Part shown: one piece after another, positions 13,033-55,720 of the stretch
Position numbering within the stretch: position 1 is the first letter of the stretch
How the letters are laid out: each line of letters opens with the position of its first letter
From: a virus
Taxonomy: Duplodnaviria > Caudoviricetes
DNA length: 61,769 nucleotides
Direction: 5' to 3' (one strand)
IMG/VR virus record: IMGVR_UViG_3300020419_000016
Location: 1 to 61,769 of that record
The notes under the pieces: generated by a model
The model's database searches: none
What the model was told of the DNA's origin: nothing
What the model saw: only the letters and a program-made list of their open reading frames with translations
Position numbers and translations under genes: made by a program

Positions 13033-13040
13033 TATTTATC
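13033..13040 (-). promoter_or_regulatory. T4-like late promoter (GATAAATA)
   Basis: Overlaps the stop codon of the giant ORF, upstream of the gene starting at 13013. Confidence 0.6.
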
Positions 13041-19000: not shown

Positions 19001-22000
19001 AATAGTTCTACTTTTTCATTACCTCTACTAAACAATGTTTGTGATAATTCAAATAAACCAGTAGTTACATTTTTCTTCATTACAAAGACTCGGCCTTGAT
19101 CAAATTGTATACGTGAAGGATCTGTTTCGCTACGTTGTGTTTCTGCAAAAGGTTCACCAATTGCAATCATATTACCATCACTACTGATAGCTATGTCTGA
19201 TCCCCATAATGTTTTTTCTGTAGACCATTGATCGTCGTCGTCTGTCTGTGCAGGAAAACTAGATTCCATTATACTTTGTGTTCTTTGATAATTGCCGTTT
19301 TTATTTCTATATACAACTACTTGTGATTTTTCACCGCCATCATACCTAGCAAGTCCTATAAGAACTTCACCATCATCAGAAACATCTATTCTGTTAAAAT
19401 TAAATAACCCTCCTTGATCTAATACAGTACTAGGATCAGCACTATCAAAGATTGGTAGTATTTCTGTATTGTTAGGAACATAACCTAAGTAATCTAAAGG
19501 TTGTGTTTGTTGAGTCCAGTTAGCTCCATTAAAAAATCCTGGTGCTAAATTTGTATTTGCTTTGTAAATACCTCCATCAAGATAAATTATATCTCCGGTT
19601 TGATAACTTACTAAAGACGAGTATGTTCCTTGAAACTTTTTATCTTTAGCTAGTTCCCAATCCCAAACATTACCGTCTACATCTGTTCCGTGTTTTATAA
19701 AATAAGTCCTGCCAGGTTGGAAAGTGCTATCGTCAAATTGTTTATTTAGATTTCTAAAATCTCTAAACGTATTGTAATCTTCGCCTGCATGTACAAAAAG
19801 TCTGTACAAGTTATTTTTCTTTGCACACCTTATTTCAGATCCTAAATAAAAATCTTCTTTTGCTTCTGGTACAATGTAACTTTGTAAAAATGCATATCTA
19901 TTAGTTGTTCCTGTACCAAAGACTGAATACATTCCTTGGTTCTCAAGAGTGCTTGCTGTTGCTCCGCTTACAGCAGGAATACTATAAACATTTATCCAAT
20001 CATTATTGCCTGCTGACGGCAAGTTAGCTGCAACAGGAACGCCTGAAACTGTATTTTCTTGGTAAAACCAATATTCAGTATCTGTCATTGCAGAAGTTGT
20101 AGGTAATGAAATATTTGCTCCTGTATCAACTACTATTAATTTTCCAATATCTTCTGAAGCTAGTCCTAAAGATTTTTTCTGAATTTCGCCCATTACACGA
20201 TCAACTTGATATATTGGACTAGGATCTGTCGGAGATCCTAAAAATTCTATTTCTGCATTATTGCCAAATATAGAGCCGTTTGAAAAGTTACCAACTACAT
20301 CTTTTACAAAAATTGTTGCGTTTAATGCGTCTCTTTGATAAAATGTTATTTTCGCTGTTGCTCCTGTTGTAACATCTCTCACGGTATCACCTACCCTAGG
20401 CTCAAATGGTTCTCCAAATAAATTAAACTTTGTGAATCCAAATTTAATATATCCGTCCCATAAATCATATACAGTTAATTCACTATTAGTTTGTGCATAT
20501 GTTAATCCTATAGCTGAAGGATCATTACTAATACCAGATGTATATCTTGCCAATGAAGGAATAAACATTTTAAATGTGCTACCGTTTGATAGCGTATCAG
20601 TTAACGGTTTAGGAGCTCTAATTACATAATAAGGACTAAGGAATGGAGTAGTAACGCCGGCTGCACCTGGTAATCCTTGATAGCTTAATGTTTCTATATA
20701 ACTTGCTAATGTATCTTCACTAGATACTGTTGCTGTTTCATAATCTCTTGAATTATAATAATAATTAGATGGTGCTGAACTATCAGTAATTGCTTCTTGG
20801 TATACTAAACCTTTACCTTGATCTGATGTGGTTGTAAATATCTGATAACCACCTGGAACAGTAATCATAAAATATCCACCGTAGTAGCTACTTACATCTG
20901 TTGTTTCTGAAGGAGCAGCTGTAGTATATTCTCCAACAAAGTCTCCGTTTGAAAGGAATAAACTGTCTGTAGAACTAAAACTTCCTGTTATCTCATTAAT
21001 ATATAATCCTATACTACCGCCAACTTCATAAGAATATGCTACTGTACCAGATCCTGTTTGTGTTTGAATCTTATCTCCGGCTACTGGTTGGTTTGTAAAT
21101 GCATTAATATTAAGAATTAAATCAACCTTCATTTGTATTTGATGAGTACTGCTAAAGAACGTAGAGCTTAATTCTGACATACCGCCACCTGGGAATGGTT
21201 CTTTATCTGTATAGGTTGTTTGCTCTTGGTTTGCTATTGTTTTCTTATTCCATTTTAGTTTAATTTGGTCATTTATATCAAGACCTGCATATTGTAACTT
21301 TGGTGCTTTAACTAAAACATGATCAACAGTAATTCCAGTAAAAGGATATTTACCTGTCAATATTACATCTATCTGTTCTGAAGATTGTGTTGTATTACCA
21401 ACTGACTCTATCTGTTGAACTACACTTCCAAAACTAGTAAACTGAATACTAGCTGATTGTGGAACAATTGACGTAGTTGCCTTCCATAACTTATTATTAT
21501 AATTTACAATATCATCTAGTACATAAGAGCTACTAGCGTTATAATCATTTTTATATCTTGTTTTTACATTACTTGCATTAGGAGATCCAACAACTAGATA
21601 TTTCCCATCCTCTGTCAAAGAAATAGCTGAGCCAAATTTTTGTAGCTTAGGTGGCGTTGTTAAAGGTGTAAATTTACTAACATCAAAATTTACTCCAGCT
21701 ATGTGTGTTTCTGCTACTGTATAAAATAAGTTATTGGCTTTTACTAAATCGCCTACAGTATATGTCACACCTGTATAAAATCTTTTATATGTAAATGCTG
21801 TATCTGTAGGAGCAGTAACAACTTGTGATAACACAAAGTTTGCACTTGCTGAACCTCTAGTGTAAATATAAACCTGGCCATCATCTTCATCTGGTGAGCC
21901 AACAGCTAATACAGTATTAGATTTATTAGTTGTTATTGCTGTTGCAAATGTTTCATTGTTAATACTTTCTCCACTGCTAATATCTTGTAACTTTAAAAAT

Positions 22001-25000
22001 GCTTCTGTATTTTCGTATACTGTCCAGTTATTACCATCAGCTTTATCTACCCAAAATTTTGACTTTAGTGTTGCTAATTTTTGTGCAATATCATTCAAGT
22101 TAGCTAAAGAATCTGTTCTAACAGATACTAATTTACTTAACTTTCCGATACACTCATCTATGTCTTGAACTTCTTCAGCCGTTTCAAAAGTAACTTTTTC
22201 TAAACTTATAGATTTTACTTTAAAGAATCCACCAACTGCACCTTTGGTTGTTTGAGCGTTTGCAAACGTACTATCTCCTGGATCTAGTGTTGTTGAAATT
22301 AAATCATAAACTCCAAATATGTCGCCTGCTTTTATATTTTGCGGAGTTGAAGTTAATGTGACAGTAAATTCAGTTTCACCCCCAGTTACTTTTTCTACTA
22401 TTAAATCTGTATCATCATGCCTGTATATATTCCATGTAAGTTTATCATTACCTACCCAAATTAAATCACCTTGATTACATGTAGCAAAATCTATATTTAA
22501 AATTGAATCAAAATCTTTTACAACAAATTTTACATCTTCTTGATTAACGTAGCCACTATCTTTTACAAAACCTTGTTCTGAAGCGATATATTTTTTTGGA
22601 AACGGAGCATGCGTATAATTTTTTGGTTTTAAATAAGTTTCATAAGGCTGTATTCTATAAATTAGATCTGTTTCTTCACCTGTTACAGATTTAACTAGTT
22701 CTATTGGCTGTGGAGAAAGTCTAAACTTATTTTCATCTAATTTATATTCTACTTCATCAAAGCCCGAAGCTGCACCATACTGGCCACGCTTAATAGCCCA
22801 TTCTTCGTAGAACTCTAAACTATCTTTATCTGTGTTTCCTAGAACATCAAATAATTTTGTTAAAGCGTTCTTTGTACCTTTATCTTGAATGAATCCTTGA
22901 TAAAACTTATACTGACTTACATCATCATTAATAATATTTTCTAAATACTTACGTTTCTGATACCCAATAAGATGTTGTGCTAACCTTTGTTGTTCACTAT
23001 CAAAGTTATCACTATCTAAGTCATAAAAATCTGCAAACTGGTTTGTTTTATATTCGAAGTTTGGTGTTAACCCAGATTCTGGTTTAGAATCTAATCTTGA
23101 CCATTGATTATCAATAAATGATTCTGTACCTGGAACTTTACTGTTTGCAGTATAATAAAATTCTTTGTGCTTTACAATATCGCCTATAAAGTAATCTTTA
23201 TTTGGTTGCCAGTCTGTTATAGTTGCTTGGTCATATACAAAGCCTTCTATATTTAAACTTCCATCCCAGTTTGTTGTTCTGTATCCTAGTACTTTAATTC
23301 TTTCTTGCCTGTAACCTGGTTCAGGATCATATATTGTATCATTGAAAACAGTTTTGTTATCTAATAAAACAACATGCTCTTTTTGTACACAAGGTAACTT
23401 TATTGCAAAAATTCCATCTGCTGTGTTTTTTGGTCTTAAAATAAATTCAGTTGGTTCTTGCCTATCAACTTGTATAAAATCAGATGTTAATTTTTGTCCA
23501 TCAACTTTTAGTAATGTATAACCAAAGAATCCGTCAAATATGTTATCAACAACACTATAGTCTGTTTTAAACTTTAATTGATTTGCGCCTGGACTTAAAC
23601 TAATTAAGGTTCCTTCTGCCCAATTGTGAAGTGTCCAAAAAGCAAACTCTTTTGTTGAAGTTTCCCAGTCATCTACTACACTAGCACTTTTTCTAAAATT
23701 ATCAAATACAAATCCAATAGACTCTAAATACTTTCCATACCCTTGAATAAAGTCACACACATCTTGTATTGTTGGTAATATAGTTCCGTATGGTAACTCT
23801 AACGGTGCAAAAGTTGCAAACTCTCTTCGAAGAGTAATTTCTCTTCCACCAGTAGTTGGTAGCTTAGGTATGCTTGCAAAATTAGATTCTTCAAAAGTAT
23901 CTCCAGCTATGTGTTGCTTTGTTACTCGATAATATTTTCCTGAATGTTCTACTATAGCACCTACTGTATAAGTACGACCTCCTTCAAACTCTAAGAATGG
24001 TTCAGAAGTTCCGCCAACTGTAATTACAGGATCTCTGTCTCTTTCAAAGTGTGGGAAATATTTAAATGTAGTTGATGAATTATCATAACCTTTAATTTTA
24101 TATCCATTAGTTCTTCGTTCAATTATAAGGCCACTATACGAAATTGTTTTAATTGGAGCACTTTTATTTAAAAATATATTATAGTTTTCATCTGGTACAA
24201 ATACATTACCTTCATTAAGAGGTGTTCTACTATCTAGAATCAGTTTAAATTTATTTTTATCTGTATATCCGCCAACTTTGAACCCTATCTGGTTAGTAAT
24301 CGATTTAAGATTTTGTTTGTATTCAGTATACGAAGTAACAACATTAGATGCCATGTAGCCTGCAACATAATTTACAAGTCCTGATGTAAAAGTTTGAGTA
24401 CTGTCTAACTGGGTGTTAGGAAAAATTAAATCTTTTAATTTAATCTGATTACTTTGTGTTTTGTATATTATTTGCTTAGTTAAATTTCTTACTTGATTAA
24501 CTCTATCAAATCCTGTAGCTAATACTTTTGAAGGTTGACTTAGTGTCCAGGCAGTAATTAAACTGAAAGGATACTCACTACTTCTTCTCCATGCTGTTTC
24601 AACCGGCGCTTCGTCACCAAATTTAAACGAATCATCTAATCTTGCTGAATCAAAACTTTGTGCATAACCTGAATCGTTTGGACTTAATAAATTTCCGCTT
24701 GCATCAACTGGTAGATGTGTTAAAAGTCCTGGTCTCTTATATTTGTTTAAAATTTTTATTTTTTTATTAGGCTCTCTCACAACCCCGTTTTGCAAGTCAG
24801 TCCATAACACTAAATTATCTCTTGTATACGGAGCTGGGCCATACTGTGTTTCCCACCAAGTAGGCATTTTTGTAAAACCTATCATTTCCCAAGGATGGGT
24901 ATGTGGCCTGTCTGTATCATATGCGTGTCTGTATACGCCTCTCCAAAAGCCAGGTAAGTCATTACCGTTAGGTGATGCTGCAGAAGAATAATTAAATGTC

Positions 25001-28000
25001 CAAGTATTCGTTCTATTATGAAAATCGTTTAGCGTATAATCTTTATCTACCAATGTTGACCATTGTATAAAGTCTGACAACATTGGACTATCTACTGCTG
25101 TTTTACTAAAGTCAGTTGTCCTAAATTCTCCGCCTTGAAAATTATGTATATCAAATAAATCAGAATCATACGCTATTTTAATGTTATTAAAAATTCTTAA
25201 TTCTAATTCTAAAACAAGATGATCTCTATAATCCTTGTAAGCTACAATTTTACTTCCGTCATGACCTTGTATTACTGGTGTGCCTTCTATCCATTCATTT
25301 ATATTCTGATTAGGATTAGTTGTGCCGTGATTTGCACTACTATTTGGCATATAGAATGTTCTGTTAAGTCCTACAAAAGTATGTGTATGGGCTGAACCTG
25401 CGCCGCCTTGCTCTGTATCTTTTGCTACTGCTTCTGCTTGTGTAGCATATAAAGGCCAAAACCAACCTACTTTTCCTGCACCCATTTGATTGGATCCGGC
25501 TGTTCCGTAAAATTTATATGCACCTGATGGTGATACTGGACCTTCACTTTGTGTAGTGTTATCAATATAAAGTTCTGGTTGATAGCTAGGATATAATCCT
25601 AACTTTGAAGGAGTCGGTGGTACATAACTGCCGTTGGTTGTCTCATATTCGTATATATCAAGTAAATCGCCTTTTGCTTTATTTGCCGTAACTCTACAAA
25701 ATCCTTCACTATTAAATACATAATCTTTTTTGTGTACTAATTGTCTTCCGTTTAAGTATACTTGTACTGCATCTCTACTAGCAGTATCTAAGCTAAAGGT
25801 TTTAGAAAGTAAAAAATATTCTTCTGTATTATCGTCTATCTCGTGCGTAGTTTTATTAAAAGATCCTTGAGGCACCATATCTGAAAAATAGAACGGCATT
25901 GAGTTAACTTTATCTTTGTTAAGATCAGCCATAATTTTATCAACATGTTCTTTAGCCGGACCTTCCCAACCTAAGTCATGTGCAACTTGCAAAAATAATC
26001 TTTTAAACTTACCATATTCTCTTCTTGCAAAACGCATCGACGATATTAAATTTGAATCTTTGTCTAGTAAGCTATACATTGCAAGATTTAAAGGAGAACT
26101 ATGTTTTACAAATCTATTTCCAAATCTAGTAACATCCCCTAGATCTCTTAAATTACTTGCACCAGGAAATTTACCTGTAAAGTCTGGTAAATCTTCTACA
26201 ATACTAGATACGTGATTGTTTACTTCTCCTACAGTAAATTCATTGAGGTTGTTGTTAAGCGGATTTCTTTCTAAGTTACTAGGAAACTCATAATACCCAT
26301 TATCATTTTTTGATGCAACTGAGTTTGTTTTAAAAACAATTTTGTCTCCAATAGTTAAACCAGTTGCTGACGTAAATGCTGGTTGTAAAAATGTAACTGT
26401 AGTTAAATTATTTGCTGATGTTCCTAATGTATAATCTACATCTTTTAATTTAAGCTGATTATTTAAAAATACTGTCAAGTTTAAATCTGCAAGAGATGCA
26501 CTATTTTCATAAACATCTACTTCAAACGCTGATGTAGTATTATCAAAAACATACTGTCTTACTACTGGCTGTTTACTATCAGTAGGTGCTTTTGTCCAAG
26601 CATTGGCATTTGTATATGTTGCTATTGCAGAATACTTTTGAAGGAAACCTATGTCAGTGTTTTTATAGTATAGTTGGCTTCCAATTAAATATTCAAAATA
26701 GTCTGCAAGTAAATCAAATTTAAAAGTAATATCACCTACATTAGTTATAGTTCTATAAGATAGAACAAGTCCAACTTCACTATCTGCTGTACCTATCGCT
26801 CCTTCTTTGTAACTGAAAATTTTGTTACCTTTAAAAGTTGATGAATTGTATACTGTTGTATCGCTAAAACTTTTGTTGTTTTCGTCAAACAAATCAAATA
26901 AAGGTGCTTGGTTTACTTTTGTTTTAGTTTGTGCTTGTTTCCATTCTGTACCATTGTAGTAATACATCAATCCTTTGTAGCTGGTACCTTGACTTACTAA
27001 CACAACTTCGTTTGTTATAGGTTTAGAATCTGCAACTTCAATTAATGAAATCTGTTTTATATTTTGATCTATTTCAATTTCTGGTCCATCAAATTTAAAA
27101 AACTTAACTTCGAATATTCTTCCTTTTACTAATGGATCAGGATCTGCTGTAAATAAAATACGCATTCCATCAATTAAATCTACACCATCAATGTTATATC
27201 CTGTGCTTCCTTCTATCGTCGAAAACACATCTTTAGTATGTGTATCTAAAAGATTTACATTAGTTTTAATTTTGGTACCAAAGTCAAATAGCTTTAGTCC
27301 TTTATCAAATTCAATAATTGGTCTTTTTGCTCTAGCTGACTCGTCGATACTTACAGGTTGTTGATTTAGTGTAGCACTTTGTTCAATAACTGATTTATGG
27401 AACCATCTATTGTATCGACTCCATAAGTTACCATCATTAGCTGAACGATTAATTAGCATGTAATCTCTTACTGTAGGATAACCTATAGCAGTATCAAACG
27501 GTTGTCTATCAAACCCTTGTACATCAAAGTCTACATCTACATCAGCTACAAATGCACTAGGTACTGTTAATTCGTCTTCATTAATTAAAACAATTTTATC
27601 ACCAACGCCTTCAACATAGTATTCTCCTGTAGCGTATTTTGCAGGTGTTACTTCTCCGATAAATTTAATCTTCATTCCATTACTAAGATCAAACCCGGCG
27701 CCTGTTGTATATGTTTTTTTCCCTAGTACTTCTGCATCAATATCAATAGCTGAAGATTCTTCAATATTTGCAACTTTTATTAATCCTGCTGCTTCTATGT
27801 CATTATCAGCTACATAATATAATATATTAGGTGTAGTAGCAGTTGGTGTGAATGTAATTACACCTTCTTCTGTACCTTGATTGTCAATTAAGTTATCAGA
27901 AGCTGATAACATAAATGTATCATCTAAAGTACGTTTTGTTCTAATAGTAAACGGCAACCCAGGTGTGTTAATATCAAACTTATATGTAACACCCCTAAAT

Positions 28001-28590
28001 AATTTAATAGTAGGATTTTGTGTAAGTCCGTCAGGAGAAAATACATATCCAAAATTATCTAAATTATCAGCAATGCTTACTGTGTATGTACTAACTACTT
28101 CTGTAGTTTGTCCCCTGACATCAATTGTCTGCGGACCACTTGGAAGCCAATAGTATTCTCTAAAATTAATAAACTTATCCCAATTGATATGAGGATTCCA
28201 ACTATAATATTCTTGCTTATTAGTTATATTATGATCTTTAACTTTATCATTAAAACTAGAAAGTTGATTCATGTAATCATTATAATCTTTATAAAATTTT
28301 ACAGAATCTAAATTATCTTTAATAACAGCTGCAGGTTCAAATTGATAGTTTTGTCTACTATCGGAAAAATCACCTATATAATTGTCATCTTTATCAAATG
28401 ATGATGCAGTCTCACGACCATAATAACCGTTTAACTTTTCAACTACTCCTGGTTGGACTAATTGGTCTATAGTACTAGCTAGAAATTTACTATTAGGTAC
28501 TGTTCTAAAATATTTTGGAAGATGCTGTTCAGTTTTTCTTTTTGCATTTGGATCAGCTGTTCCGTCTTTTTGATGATTATCAAAAGCCAT
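13036..28590 (-). CDS. Giant 5184-aa baseplate-associated structural protein (gp7-like position) with propeller and carbohydrate-binding-like repeats
   Basis: Uninterrupted 15.5-kb ORF coupled to gp6 through TAATG. Contains FG-GAP-like repeats, five YxxGDIV-type modules, GxGYxxxP repeats and C-terminal FxxDGxxxxFxL repeats. Confidence 0.75.
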   Translation of the reverse strand: MAFDNHQKDGTADPNAKRKTEQHLPKYFRTVPNSKFLASTIDQLVQPGVVEKLNGYYGRETASSFDKDDNYIGDFSDSRQNYQFEPAAVIKDNLDSVKFYKDYNDYMNQLSSFNDKVKDHNITNKQEYYSWNPHINWDKFINFREYYWLPSGPQTIDVRGQTTEVVSTYTVSIADNLDNFGYVFSPDGLTQNPTIKLFRGVTYKFDINTPGLPFTIRTKRTLDDTFMLSASDNLIDNQGTEEGVITFTPTATTPNILYYVADNDIEAAGLIKVANIEESSAIDIDAEVLGKKTYTTGAGFDLSNGMKIKFIGEVTPAKYATGEYYVEGVGDKIVLINEDELTVPSAFVADVDVDFDVQGFDRQPFDTAIGYPTVRDYMLINRSANDGNLWSRYNRWFHKSVIEQSATLNQQPVSIDESARAKRPIIEFDKGLKLFDFGTKIKTNVNLLDTHTKDVFSTIEGSTGYNIDGVDLIDGMRILFTADPDPLVKGRIFEVKFFKFDGPEIEIDQNIKQISLIEVADSKPITNEVVLVSQGTSYKGLMYYYNGTEWKQAQTKTKVNQAPLFDLFDENNKSFSDTTVYNSSTFKGNKIFSYKEGAIGTADSEVGLVLSYRTITNVGDITFKFDLLADYFEYLIGSQLYYKNTDIGFLQKYSAIATYTNANAWTKAPTDSKQPVVRQYVFDNTTSAFEVDVYENSASLADLNLTVFLNNQLKLKDVDYTLGTSANNLTTVTFLQPAFTSATGLTIGDKIVFKTNSVASKNDNGYYEFPSNLERNPLNNNLNEFTVGEVNNHVSSIVEDLPDFTGKFPGASNLRDLGDVTRFGNRFVKHSSPLNLAMYSLLDKDSNLISSMRFARREYGKFKRLFLQVAHDLGWEGPAKEHVDKIMADLNKDKVNSMPFYFSDMVPQGSFNKTTHEIDDNTEEYFLLSKTFSLDTASRDAVQVYLNGRQLVHKKDYVFNSEGFCRVTANKAKGDLLDIYEYETTNGSYVPPTPSKLGLYPSYQPELYIDNTTQSEGPVSPSGAYKFYGTAGSNQMGAGKVGWFWPLYATQAEAVAKDTEQGGAGSAHTHTFVGLNRTFYMPNSSANHGTTNPNQNINEWIEGTPVIQGHDGSKIVAYKDYRDHLVLELELRIFNNIKIAYDSDLFDIHNFQGGEFRTTDFSKTAVDSPMLSDFIQWSTLVDKDYTLNDFHNRTNTWTFNYSSAASPNGNDLPGFWRGVYRHAYDTDRPHTHPWEMIGFTKMPTWWETQYGPAPYTRDNLVLWTDLQNGVVREPNKKIKILNKYKRPGLLTHLPVDASGNLLSPNDSGYAQSFDSARLDDSFKFGDEAPVETAWRRSSEYPFSLITAWTLSQPSKVLATGFDRVNQVRNLTKQIIYKTQSNQIKLKDLIFPNTQLDSTQTFTSGLVNYVAGYMASNVVTSYTEYKQNLKSITNQIGFKVGGYTDKNKFKLILDSRTPLNEGNVFVPDENYNIFLNKSAPIKTISYSGLIIERRTNGYKIKGYDNSSTTFKYFPHFERDRDPVITVGGTSEPFLEFEGGRTYTVGAIVEHSGKYYRVTKQHIAGDTFEESNFASIPKLPTTGGREITLRREFATFAPLELPYGTILPTIQDVCDFIQGYGKYLESIGFVFDNFRKSASVVDDWETSTKEFAFWTLHNWAEGTLISLSPGANQLKFKTDYSVVDNIFDGFFGYTLLKVDGQKLTSDFIQVDRQEPTEFILRPKNTADGIFAIKLPCVQKEHVVLLDNKTVFNDTIYDPEPGYRQERIKVLGYRTTNWDGSLNIEGFVYDQATITDWQPNKDYFIGDIVKHKEFYYTANSKVPGTESFIDNQWSRLDSKPESGLTPNFEYKTNQFADFYDLDSDNFDSEQQRLAQHLIGYQKRKYLENIINDDVSQYKFYQGFIQDKGTKNALTKLFDVLGNTDKDSLEFYEEWAIKRGQYGAASGFDEVEYKLDENKFRLSPQPIELVKSVTGEETDLIYRIQPYETYLKPKNYTHAPFPKKYIASEQGFVKDSGYVNQEDVKFVVKDFDSILNIDFATCNQGDLIWVGNDKLTWNIYRHDDTDLIVEKVTGGETEFTVTLTSTPQNIKAGDIFGVYDLISTTLDPGDSTFANAQTTKGAVGGFFKVKSISLEKVTFETAEEVQDIDECIGKLSKLVSVRTDSLANLNDIAQKLATLKSKFWVDKADGNNWTVYENTEAFLKLQDISSGESINNETFATAITTNKSNTVLAVGSPDEDDGQVYIYTRGSASANFVLSQVVTAPTDTAFTYKRFYTGVTYTVGDLVKANNLFYTVAETHIAGVNFDVSKFTPLTTPPKLQKFGSAISLTEDGKYLVVGSPNASNVKTRYKNDYNASSSYVLDDIVNYNNKLWKATTSIVPQSASIQFTSFGSVVQQIESVGNTTQSSEQIDVILTGKYPFTGITVDHVLVKAPKLQYAGLDINDQIKLKWNKKTIANQEQTTYTDKEPFPGGGMSELSSTFFSSTHQIQMKVDLILNINAFTNQPVAGDKIQTQTGSGTVAYSYEVGGSIGLYINEITGSFSSTDSLFLSNGDFVGEYTTAAPSETTDVSSYYGGYFMITVPGGYQIFTTTSDQGKGLVYQEAITDSSAPSNYYYNSRDYETATVSSEDTLASYIETLSYQGLPGAAGVTTPFLSPYYVIRAPKPLTDTLSNGSTFKMFIPSLARYTSGISNDPSAIGLTYAQTNSELTVYDLWDGYIKFGFTKFNLFGEPFEPRVGDTVRDVTTGATAKITFYQRDALNATIFVKDVVGNFSNGSIFGNNAEIEFLGSPTDPSPIYQVDRVMGEIQKKSLGLASEDIGKLIVVDTGANISLPTTSAMTDTEYWFYQENTVSGVPVAANLPSAGNNDWINVYSIPAVSGATASTLENQGMYSVFGTGTTNRYAFLQSYIVPEAKEDFYLGSEIRCAKKNNLYRLFVHAGEDYNTFRDFRNLNKQFDDSTFQPGRTYFIKHGTDVDGNVWDWELAKDKKFQGTYSSLVSYQTGDIIYLDGGIYKANTNLAPGFFNGANWTQQTQPLDYLGYVPNNTEILPIFDSADPSTVLDQGGLFNFNRIDVSDDGEVLIGLARYDGGEKSQVVVYRNKNGNYQRTQSIMESSFPAQTDDDDQWSTEKTLWGSDIAISSDGNMIAIGEPFAETQRSETDPSRIQFDQGRVFVMKKNVTTGLFELSQTLFSRGNEKVELFGVKLSFDTKTLAITAKNADSDAKTTFDSLEAIPQTTWDNNFTTFAKKFIDTGVVYLYENIDDNLVYGQTIAYNELSDSTQAVANTDSSNSIRDFGLNLYTKNSHVYVGLPKHTTFAGENGAVIDFRKDPTKNIWKAHSSPKDTVDVAKIKKVLLYNTKENKLVSYIDYLDPVQGKIPGIAEQELSYKLHYDPAVYSLGTSNVNTSKAEVWGEEQVGELWWDLSTAKFLNAYQGNTIFSVNNWNTQFTGNSVDVYEWVETTLTPSQWNMTSASTEGVTEGVTGTTKYDDTIYSTKRIYDEISQTFSNKYYYWVKGRITAPNIETRKLSAFNVARYIDDPASMGYRFINFISPTSFVLYNCESLLKDNEVALSIQYWTIENQDINIHNQYQLYTAGLDTSKPNADIERKWFDSLIGYDSAGRIVPDPNLSAKEKYGILNDPRQSWFVNKTEALKQVIDRVNIVLKRNLIVDDKIITPLLSKQEVPLAAGNTYDLAVDTFEDLEFVGTAKVKQAVLTPVVVDGKIVRVTVTEPGRGYKVVPNVEINGRYETAANITVTINSVGAVTSATVNSQGSGYDSTLTTLAIRRFAVLVRSDSTLSGKWSVYERNINNTLWVRKVSQVFDTSLFWDYIDWYDTGYNEFTDINHLIDSSYQLESLDDNTGDVIKIANVGTGGWLLLEKIDNADSIDYTINYKTIGRQNGTIKFLPSLFNTTVGSGFDSASYDIKVYDVQPVKETRIILEALRDNLFIDELAVEYNNLFLSSLKYVFTEQGLVDWAFKTSFIKARHNVGDLSKKITFQNDNLPSYEEYLKEVKPFKSKLREYISDYNQLNVSANLVTDFDLPPRWEDETKSIVPPSVKVIDNAIVGTNTDLTTYPNKNWVDNLSYKINRVEIADAGSGYTQPPVIKFVGQDLSTSETGTGATAIAKLGQGGKIASIEVTNKGTGYLNPPVVEVNGSIREGGKPAKLVAILGDGLVRGMHTTVKFDRVTGKFIVTKLSESQTFVGSGSAYVFDLIFPMDLKTNTVEITIAGELSLQSEYTYENIKDTTKGYDRYFGRVTFTKPPANNTSIVIKYKKPIEYLTAADRVSLAYNPVAGQFGNDLSQVMDGIDYGGVEVKSFEFGGNTGWDSAPWYTDSWDTYDTTYEDEVFTLDGSTISITLSKPLENGVVYNLYRNGIRLDDPNWAPEPGYDSALVKNPNAIMQSITGDGTTTVIELQELEVPTQADDVIIVRKETSDGSFINDPESYDTSITGGTLAYTSATGLKAEDITIDGDGFVTPTTSKGPEEIVPGQVLDAVDISVFERPVGGSSIVVNRNYIGDGSTKVFDLGKTPFTGSSLFVKVGSDILEPTTDDSTLGYKVNYANKTVDFEVAPAEGSKINLTLVEVAGLQILDIDSFVSDGSSNNFETNVRWTDNVQGIATSNGVKLEAVFVKSTGSHPNNVELVLASPLKAGDVVRFALFIGDGNEIDSFSQVVVDEFIATKPQGNDTLLLSQAPFSYGPAGIHTLVQIGDDILHSGFNQQFTVSSARDYKLDLWQIPIALVQSSQIQVYLNGRILEYATDWTFTSAEAFDSDTPLDQQKGNTVKLADSIGVAGDTLLVYIITESQYRFGYFEQQGDSSNVFVPTPTICSFEVDRPIGTRMKVYQFSNSTAQKFERESYTVQENTPITKGTPEYYFLNNLRAGLFKLRSPAVDSKYAWVILNNKLLLADVDYSVTTDKNFIKLVSPLNEGDRIEVLHFGNPTVITKFGFRQFKDMLNRTHYKRIDGDKNYILGKDLTPYDKTIELVDASGITNPTAGSEYPGIIFVNGERIEYRLKEGNLLKQLQRGTLGTGVNDLHSSGTEVYDQSIDASMPYKDETISTVFTADGTSSTFELDFTPGAGGVNEFDVFVAGQRLRKNAISSYKFETTINGVTTSSIAQDSPEGDETLPAEFSILGSTLTLLNAPGENQKVIIIRKQGKRWTDPGTALSQADTDIGRFLRATSVDLPR

Positions 28591-39475: not shown

Positions 39476-40486
39476 TTGTTTAAGAAAGCGGCAGTATTTA
39501 CTGATATTCACCTTGGGTTAAAAGGGAATAGTAAAGTACACAACGACGATTGTGAAGAGTTTGTAGATTGGTTTATCCAAAATGCAAAAGATAACGGTTG
39601 CGAAACCGGAATATTCTGTGGTGATTGGCATCACAATAGAAATTCATTAAATTTAACCACTATGGATGCAACTATACGTTCAATGGAAAAGCTAGGTGCA
39701 TCATTTGAACAGTTTTTCTTCTTCGATGGTAACCACGATCTTTATTATAAAGATAAAAGAGATGTTAATTCAACAGCATTTGCTAAACACATTCCAGGTA
39801 TTACCTTTATCGATAAAATTACTACCAAAGAAGATGTAACATTAGTTCCTTGGCTTGTAGGTGAAGAGTGGAAGAAGATTAAAAATATTAAAAGTAAATA
39901 TATGTTTGGTCATTTTGAACTTCCTAGTTTCTATATGAACGCTATGGTACAGATGCCTGATACAGGAGAGTTACAGGCTTCGCATTTTGAACATCAAGAA
40001 TATGTTTTTAGTGGACACTTTCATAAAAGACAAAAACAAGGTAAAATTTATTACATAGGAAATGCATTTCCTCACAACTATGCAGATGCATGGGATGACA
40101 AACGAGGAATGATGATACTAGATAGAGAAAACAATAAAGAACCAGAGTATATTGACTGGGTAGATTGTCCTAAATATAGAACAACAACTTTAAGTCAATT
40201 GTTAGACCCTAAACAAAACATTATTAAAAGTAAAATGTATTTGAGAGTTACTATTGATGTTCCCATCAGTTATGAAGAAGCTAGTTTTATTAAAGAAACA
40301 TTTATTAGCCAACACAAATGTAGAGAAATTAGTTTAATTCCACAAAAACAGGTTGAAGAAATATCTACTGAACTAGATATTCAACAGTTTGAATCTGTTG
40401 ACCAAATAGTTGCAGGCGAAATTGCCGCAATTGACTCCGATAACTTTAACAAAAAGACACTTATGGACATTTATAGCGACCTATGA
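39476..40486 (+). CDS. gp47: Recombination endonuclease subunit gp47 (Mre11/SbcD-like)
   Basis: Metallophosphoesterase motifs DIHLG, GDWHH, GNHD, GHF and SGHFH. TTG start with an AGGAG RBS. Confidence 0.93.
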   Translation: MFKKAAVFTDIHLGLKGNSKVHNDDCEEFVDWFIQNAKDNGCETGIFCGDWHHNRNSLNLTTMDATIRSMEKLGASFEQFFFFDGNHDLYYKDKRDVNSTAFAKHIPGITFIDKITTKEDVTLVPWLVGEEWKKIKNIKSKYMFGHFELPSFYMNAMVQMPDTGELQASHFEHQEYVFSGHFHKRQKQGKIYYIGNAFPHNYADAWDDKRGMMILDRENNKEPEYIDWVDCPKYRTTTLSQLLDPKQNIIKSKMYLRVTIDVPISYEEASFIKETFISQHKCREISLIPQKQVEEISTELDIQQFESVDQIVAGEIAAIDSDNFNKKTLMDIYSDL

Positions 40487-42255
40487 TAGAAATTAAAGAT
40501 TTAACAGTAAAGAACTTCATGAGTGTGGGTAATCAAACCCAGGCTGTAGATTTTAATCAGCAACAACTAACTTTAGTATTAGGTGAAAACTTAGATCAAG
40601 GTGGTGATGATAGCGGTTCACGTAACGGAACAGGAAAAACTACTATTATCAATGCTTTGAGCTATGCATTATACGGTCAAGCACTTACAAACATTAAACG
40701 CAACAACTTAATTAATAAAACTAACAGTAAAGGTATGTTAGTTACACTTCATTTTGAAAAAAATGGCGTAGACTACAGGATTGAGCGTGGTAGAGGCCCT
40801 AACTTACTTAAATTTTTTATAAACAATCAAGAACAAGAGCTAGTTGACGAAAGTCAAGGCGATAGTCGTAAAACACAAGAGTTTATCAATGACTTATTAG
40901 ACATGAGTCATGATATGTTCAAGCATATTGTTGCACTTAATACATATACTGAGCCGTTTCTTGCTATGAAGCAAAACGATCAACGTGCAATTATTGAACA
41001 ACTATTAGGAATTACTATACTATCTGAAAAAGCAGAGTCTTTAAAAGAACAAATTAAAAAAACTAAAGAATTAGTTACTGAAGAAACTTTAAAAATTGAA
41101 GCAATACAAACTGCTAATGAAAAAATAAATGCAACTATTGAAAATCTACAAGGTACGCAACGTGCATGGATGTCTAAGAAAGATCAAGATATTAAAAAAC
41201 TACAAAGTAGCATAGACGAGCTAGAGCATGTTGATATTAATACTGAACTTGACTTACATGAAAAATTAAGTACATGGAACGAACATAATAATAAAATTAT
41301 GGCTCTTAAAAAAGAATTAAGCACACTTGAGCCTGCATTAGTACGTGCTGACAAGACTGTAGAAAAAGCATCTAAAGATATCGCAGATCTTGATAATGCT
41401 ACTTGCTATACTTGTGGACAAGCACTACATGATGACAAAAAAGATGAAATTTTAGATAGAAAAAATAAAGAACTTGAAGATGCTATAGCATATCAAACCG
41501 AAGTAGGTGATAAACTTATTGATGTTTCAAAAGGACTTGAAAGTATTGGTGAGATTAATGGAAAGCCTACAACATTTTACGAGACAGCTAAAGAAGCGTA
41601 TGAGCATAGACAGAATGTTGATAGCTTAAAACAATCCTTATCTAACAAAGAACAGGAAATTGATCCTTACCAAACACAAATTGACGAGCTAAACAATAGT
41701 GCCGTGCAAGAAATTAATTGGGATCCTGTTAATAGATTAGATAATTTTAAAGAACATCAAGAATTTTTATTAAAGTTGTTAACAAATAAAGATAGCTTTA
41801 TACGAAAAAAGATTATTGATCAAAATTTAGCATACCTTAATAATAGACTTACTTACTTCTTGGATAAACTAGGTCTTCCACATCAAGTTGTGTTTCAAAA
41901 TGACTTAACAGTTGAAATTACACAACTAGGACAAGACTTAGACTTTGATAATCTAAGTAGAGGTGAACGTAATAGGCTTATACTAGGTATGAGCTTTGCA
42001 TTCCGTGATGTATGGGAAAGTTTATACCAAAAAATTAACTTATTGTTTATTGATGAGTTAATTGATAGCGGAATGGATACTGCTGGTGTTGAAGGTTCAC
42101 TTGCAGTTCTTAAGAAGATGGGGCGTGAGGGTAAGAAAAATGTATATCTTATATCTCACAAGGATGAACTTGTTGGTCGTGTTAATCATGTACTTAGAGT
42201 TGTAAAGGAAAACGGGTTTACTAGTTACGCGAACGACATAGAAATTGTAGAATAG
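40483..42255 (+). CDS. gp46: Recombination ATPase subunit gp46 (Rad50/SbcC-like)
   Basis: Walker A NGTGKTT, coiled coil with a CYTC zinc hook, LSRGE signature, Walker B LFIDE and ISH switch. Confidence 0.95.
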   Translation: MIEIKDLTVKNFMSVGNQTQAVDFNQQQLTLVLGENLDQGGDDSGSRNGTGKTTIINALSYALYGQALTNIKRNNLINKTNSKGMLVTLHFEKNGVDYRIERGRGPNLLKFFINNQEQELVDESQGDSRKTQEFINDLLDMSHDMFKHIVALNTYTEPFLAMKQNDQRAIIEQLLGITILSEKAESLKEQIKKTKELVTEETLKIEAIQTANEKINATIENLQGTQRAWMSKKDQDIKKLQSSIDELEHVDINTELDLHEKLSTWNEHNNKIMALKKELSTLEPALVRADKTVEKASKDIADLDNATCYTCGQALHDDKKDEILDRKNKELEDAIAYQTEVGDKLIDVSKGLESIGEINGKPTTFYETAKEAYEHRQNVDSLKQSLSNKEQEIDPYQTQIDELNNSAVQEINWDPVNRLDNFKEHQEFLLKLLTNKDSFIRKKIIDQNLAYLNNRLTYFLDKLGLPHQVVFQNDLTVEITQLGQDLDFDNLSRGERNRLILGMSFAFRDVWESLYQKINLLFIDELIDSGMDTAGVEGSLAVLKKMGREGKKNVYLISHKDELVGRVNHVLRVVKENGFTSYANDIEIVE

Positions 42256-42263
42256 GTAATAAA

Positions 42264-42470
42264 ATGGAAGACGATATCCATGATAAACTAATAAAAGCAT
42301 ACTTAGAGTACCATAAAGCAAACGATGCATTTGAATCTAGATGTTCTCACAGAACTCATGCAAGTAGTAGGCGCTGGCTTAGAGAAATTAGGAGTTTAGC
42401 AAAACAGCGTATGGAAGAAATACATACTACGTTCAAAGTCAAGAAAGGTCAGGACGATCAAGAGGCGTAG
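42264..42470 (+). CDS. Hypothetical protein
   Basis: 68-aa helical, basic ORF within the operon, with an AGGT RBS. Confidence 0.7.
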   Translation: MEDDIHDKLIKAYLEYHKANDAFESRCSHRTHASSRRWLREIRSLAKQRMEEIHTTFKVKKGQDDQEA

Positions 42471-42481
42471 GTAAGTACAGA

Positions 42482-42916
42482 ATGCAATGGACTTACCGAG
42501 GAGAAGAAATAGAGCAATTACCAGATGATTGCGAAGGATTTGTATATTTAATAACAAATCTTACTAATAATCGAAAGTACATAGGCAAAAAACTAGCAAG
42601 ATTTAAAACAACTAAGCCACCACTTAAAGGCAAAAAGAATAAAAGGCGAGGACACAAAGAAAGTGACTGGAGAGACTATTGGGGATCATCAGATCATTTG
42701 AATGCAGACGTGCTTAGACTAGGCAAAGACAAATTTACTAGAGAAGTTTTGCATTATTGTCCCAGCAGAGGCGTATTAAGTTACATAGAGGCAAAGGAAC
42801 AGTTTGATCGCAGGGTATTAGAAACAGATGAATACTATAACGGTATCATTAATGTGCGAGTAGGCAGTTCAAAAATCTTAAAAGAACATCTTAAAAACAC
42901 TTTAGGCAAACTATAG
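42482..42916 (+). CDS. Small GIY-YIG family endonuclease
   Basis: GFVYLITN...KYIGKK motif, YWGSS, a catalytic-type Glu (YIEAKEQ) and C-terminal YYN. No separate DNA-binding tail. Confidence 0.85.
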   Translation: MQWTYRGEEIEQLPDDCEGFVYLITNLTNNRKYIGKKLARFKTTKPPLKGKKNKRRGHKESDWRDYWGSSDHLNADVLRLGKDKFTREVLHYCPSRGVLSYIEAKEQFDRRVLETDEYYNGIINVRVGSSKILKEHLKNTLGKL

Positions 42917-43320
42917 AACACTGATTGGTCGAGACGCTCGACTCACCTTGAGAACATATCACATATGTTCAGATTCTGGTGCCGTTCAACAGGCTGTATG
43001 CTACGAAAACCCTTTAGCAATAGGAACGAAGCGAGGGATAGCGAAGAAATCCGCGAAGCGGAAAACGGTTTAGCAAATTTTTTCGTGATGTCGACGTAGG
43101 TTGGGAAAGGTCAGAGCCCAGTAGCAAAGTCAAACACCTACTTCCGAATCTCGGCTGTGACGAACTCACATGAAGACCAAGATTAGATGGAACCAGCGAT
43201 TAGGTTCCGTCTGACTGAAACAATCTACATGAAGCAATTACAATTTACTTCGTAAATTGCTTTTACATATATAGTTTGAGCGTAAGCGAAAAACTAAATG
43301 AGCTTTAGCTCATTTCTTAA
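42917..43320 (+). ncRNA. Putative large structured non-coding RNA (or structured DNA element) of unrecognised family
   Basis: About 400 nt without a substantial ORF, more GC-rich than other intergenic gaps, with at least 10 helices. The long helices have G-U pairs only on the + strand. Confidence 0.65.
43296..43315. terminator. Hairpin between convergent units, possible bidirectional terminator
   Basis: AAATGAGC-TTTA-GCTCATTT perfect inverted repeat at the junction of + and - transcription. Confidence 0.5.
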
Positions 43321-43364: not shown

Positions 43365-43550
43365 TCAATGTAAATCAGGATCTCTTCCGAACCCATCTTT
43401 TACAGGACTGTATTCAAATGATTCGTATCTGAGCTGTAGATGCGGTTGAGTTTCTTGACACGTAAGTATATATTGATTAGCTTCTTCTATTGAGTTAACT
43501 ATATCAATTTCGTTATCAAGATTGTCTAATATTTTATATTTCGTAATCAT
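43365..43550 (-). CDS. Small hypothetical protein
   Basis: 61-aa ORF with protein-like composition filling the gap; TTTAAATA late-like motif at 43558-43565. Confidence 0.55.
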   Translation of the reverse strand: MITKYKILDNLDNEIDIVNSIEEANQYILTCQETQPHLQLRYESFEYSPVKDGFGRDPDLH

Positions 43551-55472: not shown

Positions 55473-55720
55473 ATAAGCTAAAAACTTGTAGCTAGAGTTT
55501 TTATATAGTGCAAGGAAGAGGCGTTTACCAGAGCGTCGAACTTGACTAGTTAGGGGTGGTACCCAGGCTTGGTAGTAGAAATACGCTGAGTCACATCGCT
55601 CTCCCGAGCGGAACTAGGTTCCCTGGTTATCAGAATGGCATCTGTGGCGAGGGGTTGTAGGTATAACCGAGTCCTACCTATACTTGCTTATACTAAAAAG
55701 ACGCTTCGGCGTCTTTTTTT
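55473..55720 (+). ncRNA. Putative stand-alone structured ncRNA of unrecognised family
   Basis: Bounded by a promoter and a terminator. A GC-rich multi-branched domain is closed by the helix 55504-55514/55683-55692, with many G-U pairs and a GAAA tetraloop. Confidence 0.75.
55695..55720 (+). terminator. Rho-independent terminator
   Basis: AAAAAGACGC-TTCG-GCGTCTTTTTTT, with a C(UUCG)G loop and a U-tract. Confidence 0.92.

What the first reader, a model, noticed from the sequence alone, without database searches (positions are those of the whole stretch)
42482..43320. Minimal GIY-YIG nuclease followed directly by an ornate ~400-nt structured element: candidate nuclease-RNA system
Seen: right after the GIY-YIG stop codon (42916) lies ~400 nt of non-coding sequence in an otherwise tightly packed genome. 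Helices: GTCGAG/CTCGAC (42928-42942); GAACATAT/ATATGTTC (42952-42970); GCGAAGAAAT/ATTTTTTCGT (43041-50/43077-86) enclosing CCGC-GAA-GCGG; GTAGGT/ACCTAC (43096-101/43136-41) enclosing TGGG/CCCA; CCGA/TCGG; TGTGA/TCACA; 12-bp TTAGATGGAACC/GGTTCCGTCTGA (43183-94/43203-14); CAATTTAC/GTAAATTG (43241-59); and a possible long-range TGCTAC/GTAGCA pair. The long helices contain G-T pairs on the + strand only, which points to a + strand RNA co-transcribed with the nuclease. Internal repeats: TAGCAA x3 (43015, 43071, 43122) and ACATGAAG x2 (43168, 43227). Known: homing GIY-YIG enzymes such as I-TevI carry a separate DNA-binding domain. This 144-aa protein has only the catalytic core plus a basic insertion (KTTKPPLKGKKNKRRGHK). 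HNH/IscB nucleases pair with adjacent ornate RNAs (HEARO/omegaRNA). Inference: the element could be a scaffold or guide for the nuclease, or an independent large phage ncRNA. I do not recognise the family.
Basis: partly seen in the sequence, partly recalled or inferred. Interest (0 to 1): 0.85.

Follow-up and report, generated by a model that had tools for sequence, protein, structure and literature searches.

The report
New folded RNA beside phage nuclease
The gene-free stretch after this small nuclease gene encodes a real, undescribed, heavily folded RNA shared by many uncultured marine phages, but the RNA goes with the genome position, not with the nuclease, so it is probably not the nuclease's guide.

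Summary
Window 42904-43316 (+ strand) is a conserved, pseudoknotted noncoding RNA of about 410 nt.

On 75 distinct sequences, 94.6% of cells pair and 28 of 42 pairs change on both sides. None of 500 shuffles reached these values. G-U cells outnumber A-C cells 90 to 14, which fixes the + strand. There is no Rfam or ARAGORN match.

The nuclease-RNA system is not supported:
- **RNA without the nuclease gene:** L108 and L143 have a PDDEXK gene in its place. L156, L161 and L205 are an unrelated phage lineage.
- **Nuclease gene without the RNA:** this holds wherever it lies away from gp46 (7 loci, plus phage Melnitz).
- **Nuclease family:** it is a common ~148-aa phage family, and its basic segment is also kept in RNA-less loci.

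Best reading: an autonomous, new family of large ornate phage RNA at the end of the gp47-gp46 operon. It most likely acts in trans; that part is inferred.

This scan had noted the same family on two other genomes (e1-5735907, e1-5659942). Their replication-origin reading is kept as a rival.

The parts
42482..42916 (+). GIY-YIG nuclease gene, 144 aa. It is a neighbour of the RNA, not a demonstrated part of it.
   Evidence: Pfam SegE_GIY-YIG PF19835, E 2.4e-34, residues 3-123. phrog_447, E 6.4e-37. About 140 aa in all 80 relatives.
42904..43316 (+). Whole structured RNA. It runs from the conserved AGGC, which overlaps the last codons of the upstream ORF, to the terminal hairpin.
   Evidence: Conservation. 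AGGC abuts the stop codon of whichever ORF lies upstream.
42927..42982 (+). 5' module, type A. It consists of hairpin 42927-33/42937-43, helix CACC 42944-47/GGTG 42979-82, and the enclosed hairpin 42952-59/42963-70.
   Evidence: The helix covaries as CACC/GGTG, CGCT/AGCG and CTCC/GGAG. The same module heads a different core in L007-type loci (nhmmer E 4e-5 to 4e-4). Many relatives carry a longer type B module instead.
42997..43002 (+). Long-range helix Px, 5' strand (TGCTAC).
   Evidence: It pairs with 43121-43126. All 10 pairs of this helix change on both sides. Own-sequence duplex median is -10.4 kcal/mol against -5.3 for foreign partners, with 23 distinct 5' strands.
43010..43037 (+). Hairpin P2, CCCT 43010-13/AGGG 43034-37. 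Its large loop holds the invariant GGAACGA (43023-29).
   Evidence: 4 of 4 pairs change on both sides and 99.3% of cells pair. Invariant loop columns.
43041..43086 (+). Variable-length stem P3. In relatives it ranges from a 4-nt-loop hairpin to an extension of about 90 nt.
   Evidence: The closing pairs covary (helix 3).
43087..43141 (+). Pseudoknotted core. It consists of junction GATGTCGAC; GTAGGT 43096-101 pairing ACCTAC 43136-41; hairpin TGGG 43102-05/CCCA 43117-20 with a near-invariant 11-nt loop; Px 3' strand GTAGCA 43121-26; and an A-rich linker.
   Evidence: Helix 4 was not in the model, yet 98.9% of its cells pair, with types UA, CG and GC at one pair. Helix 5 is 99.0% paired, with GC/AU changes. 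In L161 the pair reads GCAGGT/ACCTGT.
43144..43154 (+). Small hairpin CCGA/TCGG.
   Evidence: Covaries as CCGA/TCGG and CCAA/TTGG, but only 83.3% of cells pair.
43164..43175 (+). Box 1, ACTCACATGAAG.
   Evidence: Nearly invariant across 71 sequences.
43183..43214 (+). 12-bp hairpin. Its 3' strand GGTTCCGTCTGA is invariant.
   Evidence: Helices 7 and 8. Changes fall on the 5' strand and give G-U pairs.
43223..43234 (+). Box 2, ATCTACATGAAG.
   Evidence: Invariant core.
43241..43259 (+). Hairpin CAATTTAC/GTAAATTG, mostly with a TTCG-type loop.
   Evidence: 5 of 5 pairs covary in the 96-sequence scan.
43274..43294 (+). Conserved hairpin GTTT-GA-GC-(4-nt loop)-GC-GA-AAAC, with facing GA/GA.
   Evidence: Invariant TGAGCG..AGCGA.
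43296..43315 (+). Terminal hairpin, probably a two-way terminator.
   Evidence: 8 of 8 pairs covary. The scan scores it as a minus-strand terminator.

Best explanation
Window 42904-43316 encodes one member of a new family of large phage noncoding RNAs. Members run from about 330 to over 600 nt.

Anatomy. The family has a conserved pseudoknotted core, at least two interchangeable 5' modules and variable peripheral stems.

Position and expression. The RNA lies on the + strand at the tail of the gp47-gp46-orf68 operon. It is made either as the 3' part of the upstream ORF's transcript (this window) or from its own sigma-70-type promoter (a sister clade). It ends at a hairpin that also terminates the converging minus-strand genes.

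Relation to the nuclease. The RNA is an autonomous genetic unit. The GIY-YIG gene is an ordinary small phage nuclease gene that sits between orf68 and the RNA gene in most members of this phage group.

What is shown and what is inferred.
- Shown: the RNA-level structure, the strand, the family, and its separability from the nuclease.
- Inferred: the RNA is released or kept as a stable folded molecule that acts in trans, with a protein partner or as an RNA-only machine, in the way other large ornate phage RNAs are thought to act.

My odds:
- real autonomous RNA family, about 0.85
- trans-acting rather than cis-acting, about 0.45

The confidence figure of 0.6 is for the statement as a whole.
For: Structure and strand:
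- 94.6% of cells pair and 28 of 42 pairs change on both sides, with 0 of 500 shuffles as high.
- 94.4% pair and 17 of 42 pairs change on both sides on a plain MAFFT alignment.
- The long-range helix fits its own partner far better than foreign partners.
- G-U cells 90, A-C cells 14.

Not coding:
- Indel lengths show no preference for multiples of three: 404 are multiples of 3, against 1180 and 454 with remainders 1 and 2.
- The median in-frame open stretch after the stop codon is 13 codons in 61 loci.

Ribozyme- or aptamer-like conservation:
- 66 invariant columns in 71 sequences that are under 94% identical. Many lie in loops and junctions.
- A peripheral stem ranges from a 4-nt-loop hairpin to about 90 nt.

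The RNA follows the locus, not the nuclease:
- Of 58 nuclease loci with the RNA, 55 have gp46 within 1.5 kb upstream. Two more have it further upstream, and one has no room to tell.
- Of 16 loci without the main-type RNA, 9 are gp46-context loci that carry a variant RNA with the same 5' module. The other 7 (6 in other contexts, 1 with no room upstream) have no RNA.

RNA without the nuclease gene:
- L108 and L143 carry a PDDEXK_15 gene in its place.
- L156, L161 and L205 lie in another phage lineage. In L161 the RNA sits between an Aldolase_II gene and a cytochrome c gene.
- All five match model R1 at E 1e-21 to 1e-28.

Own promoter in the sister clade: 11 of 12 consensus matches plus TG, right after the nuclease stop codon.

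Phage-only distribution: the 4 true hits in 185,579 species genomes are phage-like contigs binned into MAGs.

Contigs from RNA libraries bridge the stop codon: 42650-43061 and 42697-42955.
Against: - No transcript ends, abundance or processing are known.
- The RNA-library contigs may derive from DNA in those libraries.
- No partner protein was found. The two phage lineages that carry the RNA share no neighbouring gene.
- The boxes are not enriched elsewhere in the 62-kb window: 2 matches against 5.1 expected.
- A start directly at a stop codon and an end at a terminator would also fit a purely cis-acting 3' UTR element.
- The sequences are related, so shuffle controls overstate independence.
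- Alignment A6 is fitted to the nested part of the structure.
Confidence: 0.6

Rival explanations
1. The RNA acts in cis on its own DNA locus. In this reading the transcript forms a persistent RNA-DNA hybrid that primes or licenses replication. This would resemble ColE1 RNA II or the transcript-primed origins of phage T4 (both recalled, not checked here). Two earlier notes of this scan proposed this reading.
For: - The RNA lies beside recombination and replication genes gp47/gp46.
- Primary sequence is strongly conserved in unpaired parts as well.
- An A+T-rich segment of variable length precedes the last conserved hairpins.
- Earlier notes e1-5735907 and e1-5659942 reached this view. They are leads, not independent evidence.
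Against: - The cumulative GC-skew minimum of the window lies at 37-39 kb, where gene direction flips, and not at 43 kb. The skew simply follows the coding strand.
- The same RNA sits among metabolic genes in another phage lineage.
- Nothing here shows hybrid formation.
Confidence: 0.12
2. The element is a cis-acting 3' untranslated region. It would protect or process the upstream operon's mRNA and terminate the converging transcripts, with no role as a free RNA.
For: - It starts at the stop codon of whichever ORF lies upstream.
- It ends in a covarying hairpin that scores as a terminator.
- RNA-library contigs join the ORF and the element.
Against: - A core of 300-600 nt with a pseudoknot and 66 invariant columns is far more than mRNA protection needs.
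- The sister clade drives its version from a separate strong promoter.
- The upstream ORF differs between loci while the RNA stays the same.
Confidence: 0.15
3. The RNA is a scaffold or guide for the adjacent GIY-YIG nuclease.
For: - Of 67 RNA loci that could be judged, 60 have the nuclease gene directly upstream.
- The two are probably on one transcript.
- The protein lacks a separate DNA-binding domain.
Against: - Both occur alone.
- 802 phage records hold relatives of the protein, 4 of them at 80-90% identity. No record in that collection matches the RNA.
- The pair is never seen outside the gp46 neighbourhood, so it does not move as a unit.
- The basic segment is kept in RNA-less loci.
- There is no constant-length hypervariable segment.
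- My search listing showed no natural RNA-guided GIY-YIG enzyme (listing only).
Confidence: 0.04
4. This reading explains the adjacency only. The nuclease gene would be a free-standing, Seg-like selfish gene that has settled next to the RNA gene because the conserved RNA gene, or its edge, is its cleavage or landing site.
For: - The nuclease gene is found in at least three genomic contexts.
- L108 and L143 look like sites without it.
- The protein is more conserved than its neighbours. One example is 88% identity against 56% for gp46 in L007.
Against: - The protein is present in at least 585 contigs at constant length, with no decayed copies seen. That looks more like a useful phage gene than a selfish one.
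- It has no DNA-binding domain for site recognition.
- The target site is unknown.
Confidence: 0.1
5. The stretch is a decayed coding region, for example a lost C-terminal DNA-binding domain, or it encodes small proteins.
For: In this window the frame stays open for 60 codons after the nuclease stop codon.
Against: - Those 60 codons are the largest value among 61 loci. The median is 13.
- Indel lengths do not favour multiples of three.
- Paired columns change in a compensating way.
- The nuclease is about 140 aa in all 80 relatives.
Confidence: 0.01

Closest known systems
GOLLD and ROOL (large ornate RNAs, often phage-borne; PMC12286853, listing and abstract seen)
   Same: Several hundred nucleotides long. 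Many conserved helices plus conserved unpaired nucleotides. Carried by phages. Function unknown. Modular peripheral variation.
   Different: No Rfam match to either family. No tRNA genes in the window. Smaller than GOLLD. Whether it forms multimers is untested.
HEARO / omega-RNA with IscB-type nucleases (recalled)
   Same: An ornate RNA encoded right next to a small nuclease gene, on the same strand.
   Different: No Rfam HEARO match. The nuclease is a GIY-YIG domain alone. The RNA and the nuclease gene occur separately. No guide-like segment is present. The pair is not mobile as a unit.
Group I introns carrying GIY-YIG homing endonuclease genes, such as those of phage T4 (recalled)
   Same: A GIY-YIG gene next to a pseudoknotted RNA in a T4-like phage.
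   Different: No interrupted host gene and no exon continuity. No Rfam Intron_gpI match. A hairpin lies between the two 5' strands of the pseudoknot, and no P8-like hairpin is in the expected place.
ColE1 RNA II and transcript-primed T4 origins
   Same: A folded transcript next to replication and recombination genes.
   Different: No evidence for an origin here. The GC-skew turning point lies 4-5 kb away and follows gene direction.
SegE-type GIY-YIG domain proteins, phrog_447. This is the closest match for the protein, not the RNA.
   Same: Pfam PF19835 at E 2.4e-34. phrog_447 at E 6.4e-37, with the same length class.
   Different: No C-terminal DNA-binding part such as Seg homing enzymes carry (recalled). 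It resembles the stand-alone T4 endonuclease II class in size (recalled, untested).

Membership tests
HEARO / omega-RNA type nuclease guide RNA | Matches the curated RNA family model | tested here: not met
   No match at gathering score or up to E 10 in the element. None in 16 related loci either.
HEARO / omega-RNA type nuclease guide RNA | The RNA and its nuclease gene always occur together | tested here: not met
   RNA without the nuclease gene in L108, L143, L156, L161 and L205. Nuclease gene without the RNA in L021, L023, L025, L029, L043, L059, L067 and Melnitz.
HEARO / omega-RNA type nuclease guide RNA | An unstructured, hypervariable guide of fixed length at one end | tested here: not met
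   The 5' end is a conserved AGGC at the stop codon and the 3' end is a hairpin. The variable segments differ in length and mostly fold.
Group I intron with homing endonuclease gene | Interrupts a gene whose exons join into one frame | tested here: not met
   The upstream ORFs are complete. The next gene downstream is on the minus strand.
Group I intron with homing endonuclease gene | Core with the P3-P7 pseudoknot, the P4-P6 domain and P8 | tested here: not met
   A pseudoknot exists, but the order of its hairpins differs. No Rfam Intron_gpI match. The comparison with the intron plan rests on recall.
tmRNA (phage Melnitz carries one, PMC9004378, passages seen) | tRNA-like domain and tag reading frame found by ARAGORN or Rfam | tested here: not met
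   ARAGORN finds 0 genes in the window. No Rfam tmRNA match.
GOLLD / ROOL | Matches the curated family model | tested here: not met
GOLLD / ROOL | Forms RNA-only multimers | not testable with these tools
   This needs cryo-EM or native gels.
Origin-priming RNA (ColE1 RNA II type) | Lies at a replication origin | tested here: inconclusive
   The cumulative GC-skew minimum is at 37-39 kb, not at 43 kb. However, skew here follows gene direction, and the record is a 17%-complete fragment.
Origin-priming RNA (ColE1 RNA II type) | Stable RNA-DNA hybrid processed into a primer | not testable with these tools
   This needs wet-lab mapping.
SegE-type GIY-YIG domain protein (the neighbouring gene) | Pfam PF19835 above its cut-off | tested here: met
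   118.6 bits against a cut-off of 25, with residues 3-123 on profile positions 1-123.
Seg-type homing endonuclease (the neighbouring gene) | A separate C-terminal DNA-binding region | tested here: not met
   The protein is 144 aa and the domain match ends at residue 123. All 80 relatives are about 140 aa.

The most novel reading that the evidence does not exclude
The RNA is a new class of large functional RNA used by abundant uncultured marine phages. It would be either a ribozyme, for instance one that cuts itself out of the operon transcript at the stop codon, or a self-assembling RNA-only particle like those reported for ROOL and GOLLD. A pseudoknotted core, 66 invariant columns, swappable 5' modules and expendable peripheral stems are what such RNAs show.
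Probability: 0.2. Interest if true: 0.85.

Novelty: new member of a known kind. Interest (0 to 1): 0.6.

Why it matters
Large, intricately folded RNAs are rare, and most of the known classes turned out to do unusual chemistry or build unusual assemblies.

This family has at least 96 distinct full-length sequences among the loci fetched here. It occurs in marine T4-like phages and in at least one other phage lineage.

The family offers enough natural variation for structure determination and a clear design for function tests. The result also removes an attractive but unsupported idea, an RNA-guided GIY-YIG nuclease, before anyone spends bench time on it.

Tried and rejected
**tmRNA.** Phage Melnitz has one, but at another locus. 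ARAGORN and Rfam find none here.

**Group I intron, HDV-like and hammerhead readings.** I compared the helix order and the boxes with recalled plans. None fits, and Rfam gives nothing.

**Stop-codon readthrough into the element.** Rejected. The median open stretch after the stop is 13 codons, and this window's 60 is the largest of 61.

**Bacterial counterpart.** The genome scan gave 5 stretches. Four are real and all lie on phage-like contigs inside MAGs. One, from a Prevotellaceae MAG, has no RNA.

**Cultured phages.** No blastn match to the 404 nt in 50,697 records.

**RNA-library contigs.** None lies over 43062-43320 in the four runs laid. This says nothing about absence.

**Boxes as decoys or targets.** No enrichment of the box or of its complement in the window.

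**Shared partner gene.** None is shared between the two phage lineages that carry the RNA.

**GC skew as an origin marker.** No extremum at the locus.

**Covariance model R1.**
A shorter seed worked.
- R1 did not reach the divergent L060-type or L007-type variants that nhmmer or inspection link to the family. Those links therefore rest on sequence only.

**All-against-all column covariation on 96 sequences.** It was swamped by one divergent subgroup and was not used for the core.

**The 2023 catalogue of viral structured RNAs (PMC10690425).** It lists motifs of 29-151 nt. Pieces of this RNA may be among them. Its supplements could not be opened.
Full report
**1. Setting**

The window is a 61.8-kb fragment of an uncultured virus record, estimated 17% complete. 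It is a marine T4-like phage. The nearest cultured relatives of the genes around the finding are the Methylophilales phages Melnitz.

The local gene order on the + strand is:
- gp47-like, 39476-40486
- gp46-like, Rad50 type, 40483-42255
- a 68-aa ORF, 42264-42470
- the 144-aa GIY-YIG gene, 42482-42916
- about 400 nt holding only ORFs of 41-51 aa

After that come a 61-aa minus-strand ORF (43365-43550) and further genes.

**2.

The stretch folds better than shuffles on both strands, with z = -3.08 on + and -2.61 on -.

The nuclease protein recovered at least 585 related stretches in IMG/VR, and 80 loci were kept. In 58 of these 80 the downstream DNA matches a profile of the element. In 16 it does not, and 6 are too short to tell.

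A second scan did not use the nuclease. It used only the two conserved boxes as a pattern. It found at least 120 stretches, and 80 loci were kept. Of these, 79 match the profile, two of them weakly.

In all, 141 of 166 sequences held the element, giving 96 distinct full-length versions. Some loci from the two scans come from the same contigs.

**3. It is an RNA structure on the + strand**

- RNAalifold on 28 of 37 distinct core sequences gave 38 pairs, 18 of them with compensating changes.
- I defined a structure by hand that includes a pseudoknot.
- On a MAFFT alignment of 30 sequences, all with the commoner 5' module and chosen from 71, 94.4% of cells pair and 17 of 42 pairs change on both sides. 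None of 500 shuffles was as high, and slid partners give 27-41% paired.
- A covariance model built from 13 seeds matched 75 of 99 sources.
- On the resulting alignment of 75 distinct rows, 94.6% of cells pair and 28 of 42 pairs change on both sides. All five measures beat 500 of 500 shuffles, and slid partners give 36-46%.

Two caveats apply. The rows are related to each other, and that alignment is fitted to the nested helices. However, the pseudoknot strand pair 43096-101/43136-41 was not in the model. It still pairs in 98.9% of cells, with three pair types at one position.

The long-range helix 42997-43002/43121-26 is the best-supported helix. All 10 of its pairs change on both sides. There are 23 different 5' strands, and the median duplex energy is -10.4 kcal/mol with the sequence's own partner against -5.3 with foreign partners.

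G-U cells outnumber A-C cells 90 to 14 of 1216. The folded strand is therefore the + strand.

Coding is excluded:
- Indel lengths do not favour multiples of three.
- The frame after the stop codon is open for a median of 13 codons across 61 loci.

**4. Anatomy**

- The RNA begins with a conserved AGGC. This motif overlaps or abuts the stop codon of whichever ORF lies upstream.
- A 5' module follows, and it comes in at least two forms. The window has the short form, two hairpins inside a covarying closing helix. Most relatives have a longer, unrelated-looking form.
- The core follows. It consists of the long-range helix; a hairpin whose big loop holds the invariant GGAACGA; a stem that ranges from a 4-nt-loop hairpin to about 90 nt; an invariant junction; the pseudoknot helix enclosing a hairpin with a near-invariant 11-nt loop; an A-rich linker; a small hairpin; box 1; a 12-bp hairpin whose 3' strand never varies; and box 2.
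- The 3' part has a covarying hairpin, a stretch of variable length, a conserved hairpin with facing GA/GA, and a terminal hairpin. All 8 pairs of the terminal hairpin covary, and the scan scores it as a minus-strand terminator.
- There are 66 invariant columns among 71 sequences under 94% identical. That alignment used 69 of the 78 sequences selected. Nine divergent ones were left out because MAFFT could not place them, and L156 and L161 were added.

**5. It is not a known family**

- Rfam 15 gives nothing in the element, either at gathering score or up to E 10. It also gives nothing in 16 related loci.
- ARAGORN finds no tRNA or tmRNA.
- No match to the 404 nt was found in 50,697 phage records.
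- The 4 true hits in the species-genome collection are phage-like contigs inside MAGs.
- My literature searches did not turn it up (listings and abstracts only).
- The 2023 catalogue of viral structured RNAs reports motifs of 29-151 nt. It could hold fragments of this RNA.
- This scan's own notes show that the family was seen twice before on other genomes.

**6. The nuclease link fails**

The protein is a SegE-type GIY-YIG domain. It belongs to phrog_447, a family whose profile is 148 long.

Relatives occur in 802 phage records, 4 of them at 80-90% identity and the rest under 60%. No record in that collection matches the RNA.

The basic segment lies within the domain match. It is kept in loci that have no RNA.

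Among nuclease loci, the RNA follows the position in the genome:
- Of 58 loci with the RNA, 55 have gp46 within 1.5 kb upstream. Two more have it further upstream, and one has no room to tell.
- Of the 16 loci without the main-type RNA, 9 are gp46-context loci. These carry about 650 nt free of ORFs, starting with the same 5' module.
- The other 7 lie after ribonucleotide reductase or dCMP-deaminase-like genes, or beside converging genes (one of them with no upstream sequence to judge), and they have no room for an RNA.

Melnitz, at 80% protein identity, also lacks the RNA.

Conversely, of 67 box-ascertained loci that could be judged, 60 have the nuclease gene upstream. Four carry a confirmed RNA without it, and 3 are unconfirmed pattern matches.
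- In L108 and L143 a PDDEXK_15 gene and a small ORF stand in the nuclease gene's place.
- L156 and L161, together with L205 from the genome scan, belong to a different phage type. In L161 the RNA lies between an Aldolase_II gene and cytochrome c and SHMT genes.

No variable segment has the fixed length and open structure of a guide.

**7. Expression**

In this window no promoter-like site stands out before the RNA. The scan found 6 sites against 4.2 expected.

Contigs from two RNA libraries of different studies run from inside the nuclease ORF into the element, at 42650-43061 and 42697-42955. This fits co-transcription, although DNA carried into those libraries cannot be excluded.

In the sister clade a promoter with 11 of 12 consensus matches plus TG sits directly after the nuclease stop codon. 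There the RNA probably has its own start.

**8. What it does**

This part is inference. The pattern of conservation is the pattern of RNAs whose fold itself does the work: an invariant pseudoknotted core, expendable peripheral stems and swappable modules.

I therefore favour a stable RNA that acts in trans, alone or with a protein (about 0.45). The alternatives are:
- a purely cis-acting 3' UTR (0.15)
- the origin or RNA-DNA-hybrid role proposed by the earlier notes (0.12)
- a nuclease partner (0.04)

My one test of the origin idea was GC skew. It gave no support, but it is weak evidence, because skew here tracks gene direction. I found no partner gene shared by the two carrier lineages, and no extra copies of the boxes or of their complement in the window.

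**9. Verdict**

The element is a real new family of large ornate phage RNA. The eye-catching nuclease-RNA system is not supported.

Noticed in passing
window 55482-55687 (+): A manA RNA (Rfam RF01745) at 56.4 bits, just above its gathering score of 55.2. It lies in the 596-nt gap before the ORF at 55635.
   Followed up: no
window 13036-28590 (-): A single open reading frame of 5184 aa, followed by one of 1189 aa. Presumably a giant structural or fibre protein. Not examined.
   Followed up: no
L007 3414-4090 (also L014, L015, L016, L024, L035): A sister clade has a strong sigma-70-type promoter right after the nuclease stop codon. About 650 nt free of ORFs follow. They begin with the same 5' module as the window's RNA but continue into a different, also hairpin-rich, core. 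This suggests a superfamily of modular RNAs.
   Followed up: partly
L108 8216-8933; L143 (same position): A PDDEXK_15 endonuclease gene plus a 71-aa ORF occupy the slot between orf68 and the RNA, where the window has the GIY-YIG gene. Two unrelated nuclease genes alternate at one site.
   Followed up: partly
L161 5639-10534: A phage-like contig carries IscU-like, Bax1-I, Aldolase_II, cytochrome c, SHMT and FAD-oxidase-like genes around its copy of the RNA. It is either an unusually rich set of host-like metabolic genes or a mixed contig.
   Followed up: partly
window 42917-43099 (+): The reading frame of the nuclease stays open for 60 codons past its TAG. This is the longest among 61 loci and is not conserved.
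   Followed up: yes
L060, L058, L066, L074, L079 (about 3430-3900): A divergent subgroup keeps the 5' module, both boxes and the 3' hairpins. The sequences of its core helices are replaced, including a fully different 10-bp hairpin in place of 43183-43214. The covariance model missed the three of them it was given, L058, L060 and L079.
   Followed up: partly
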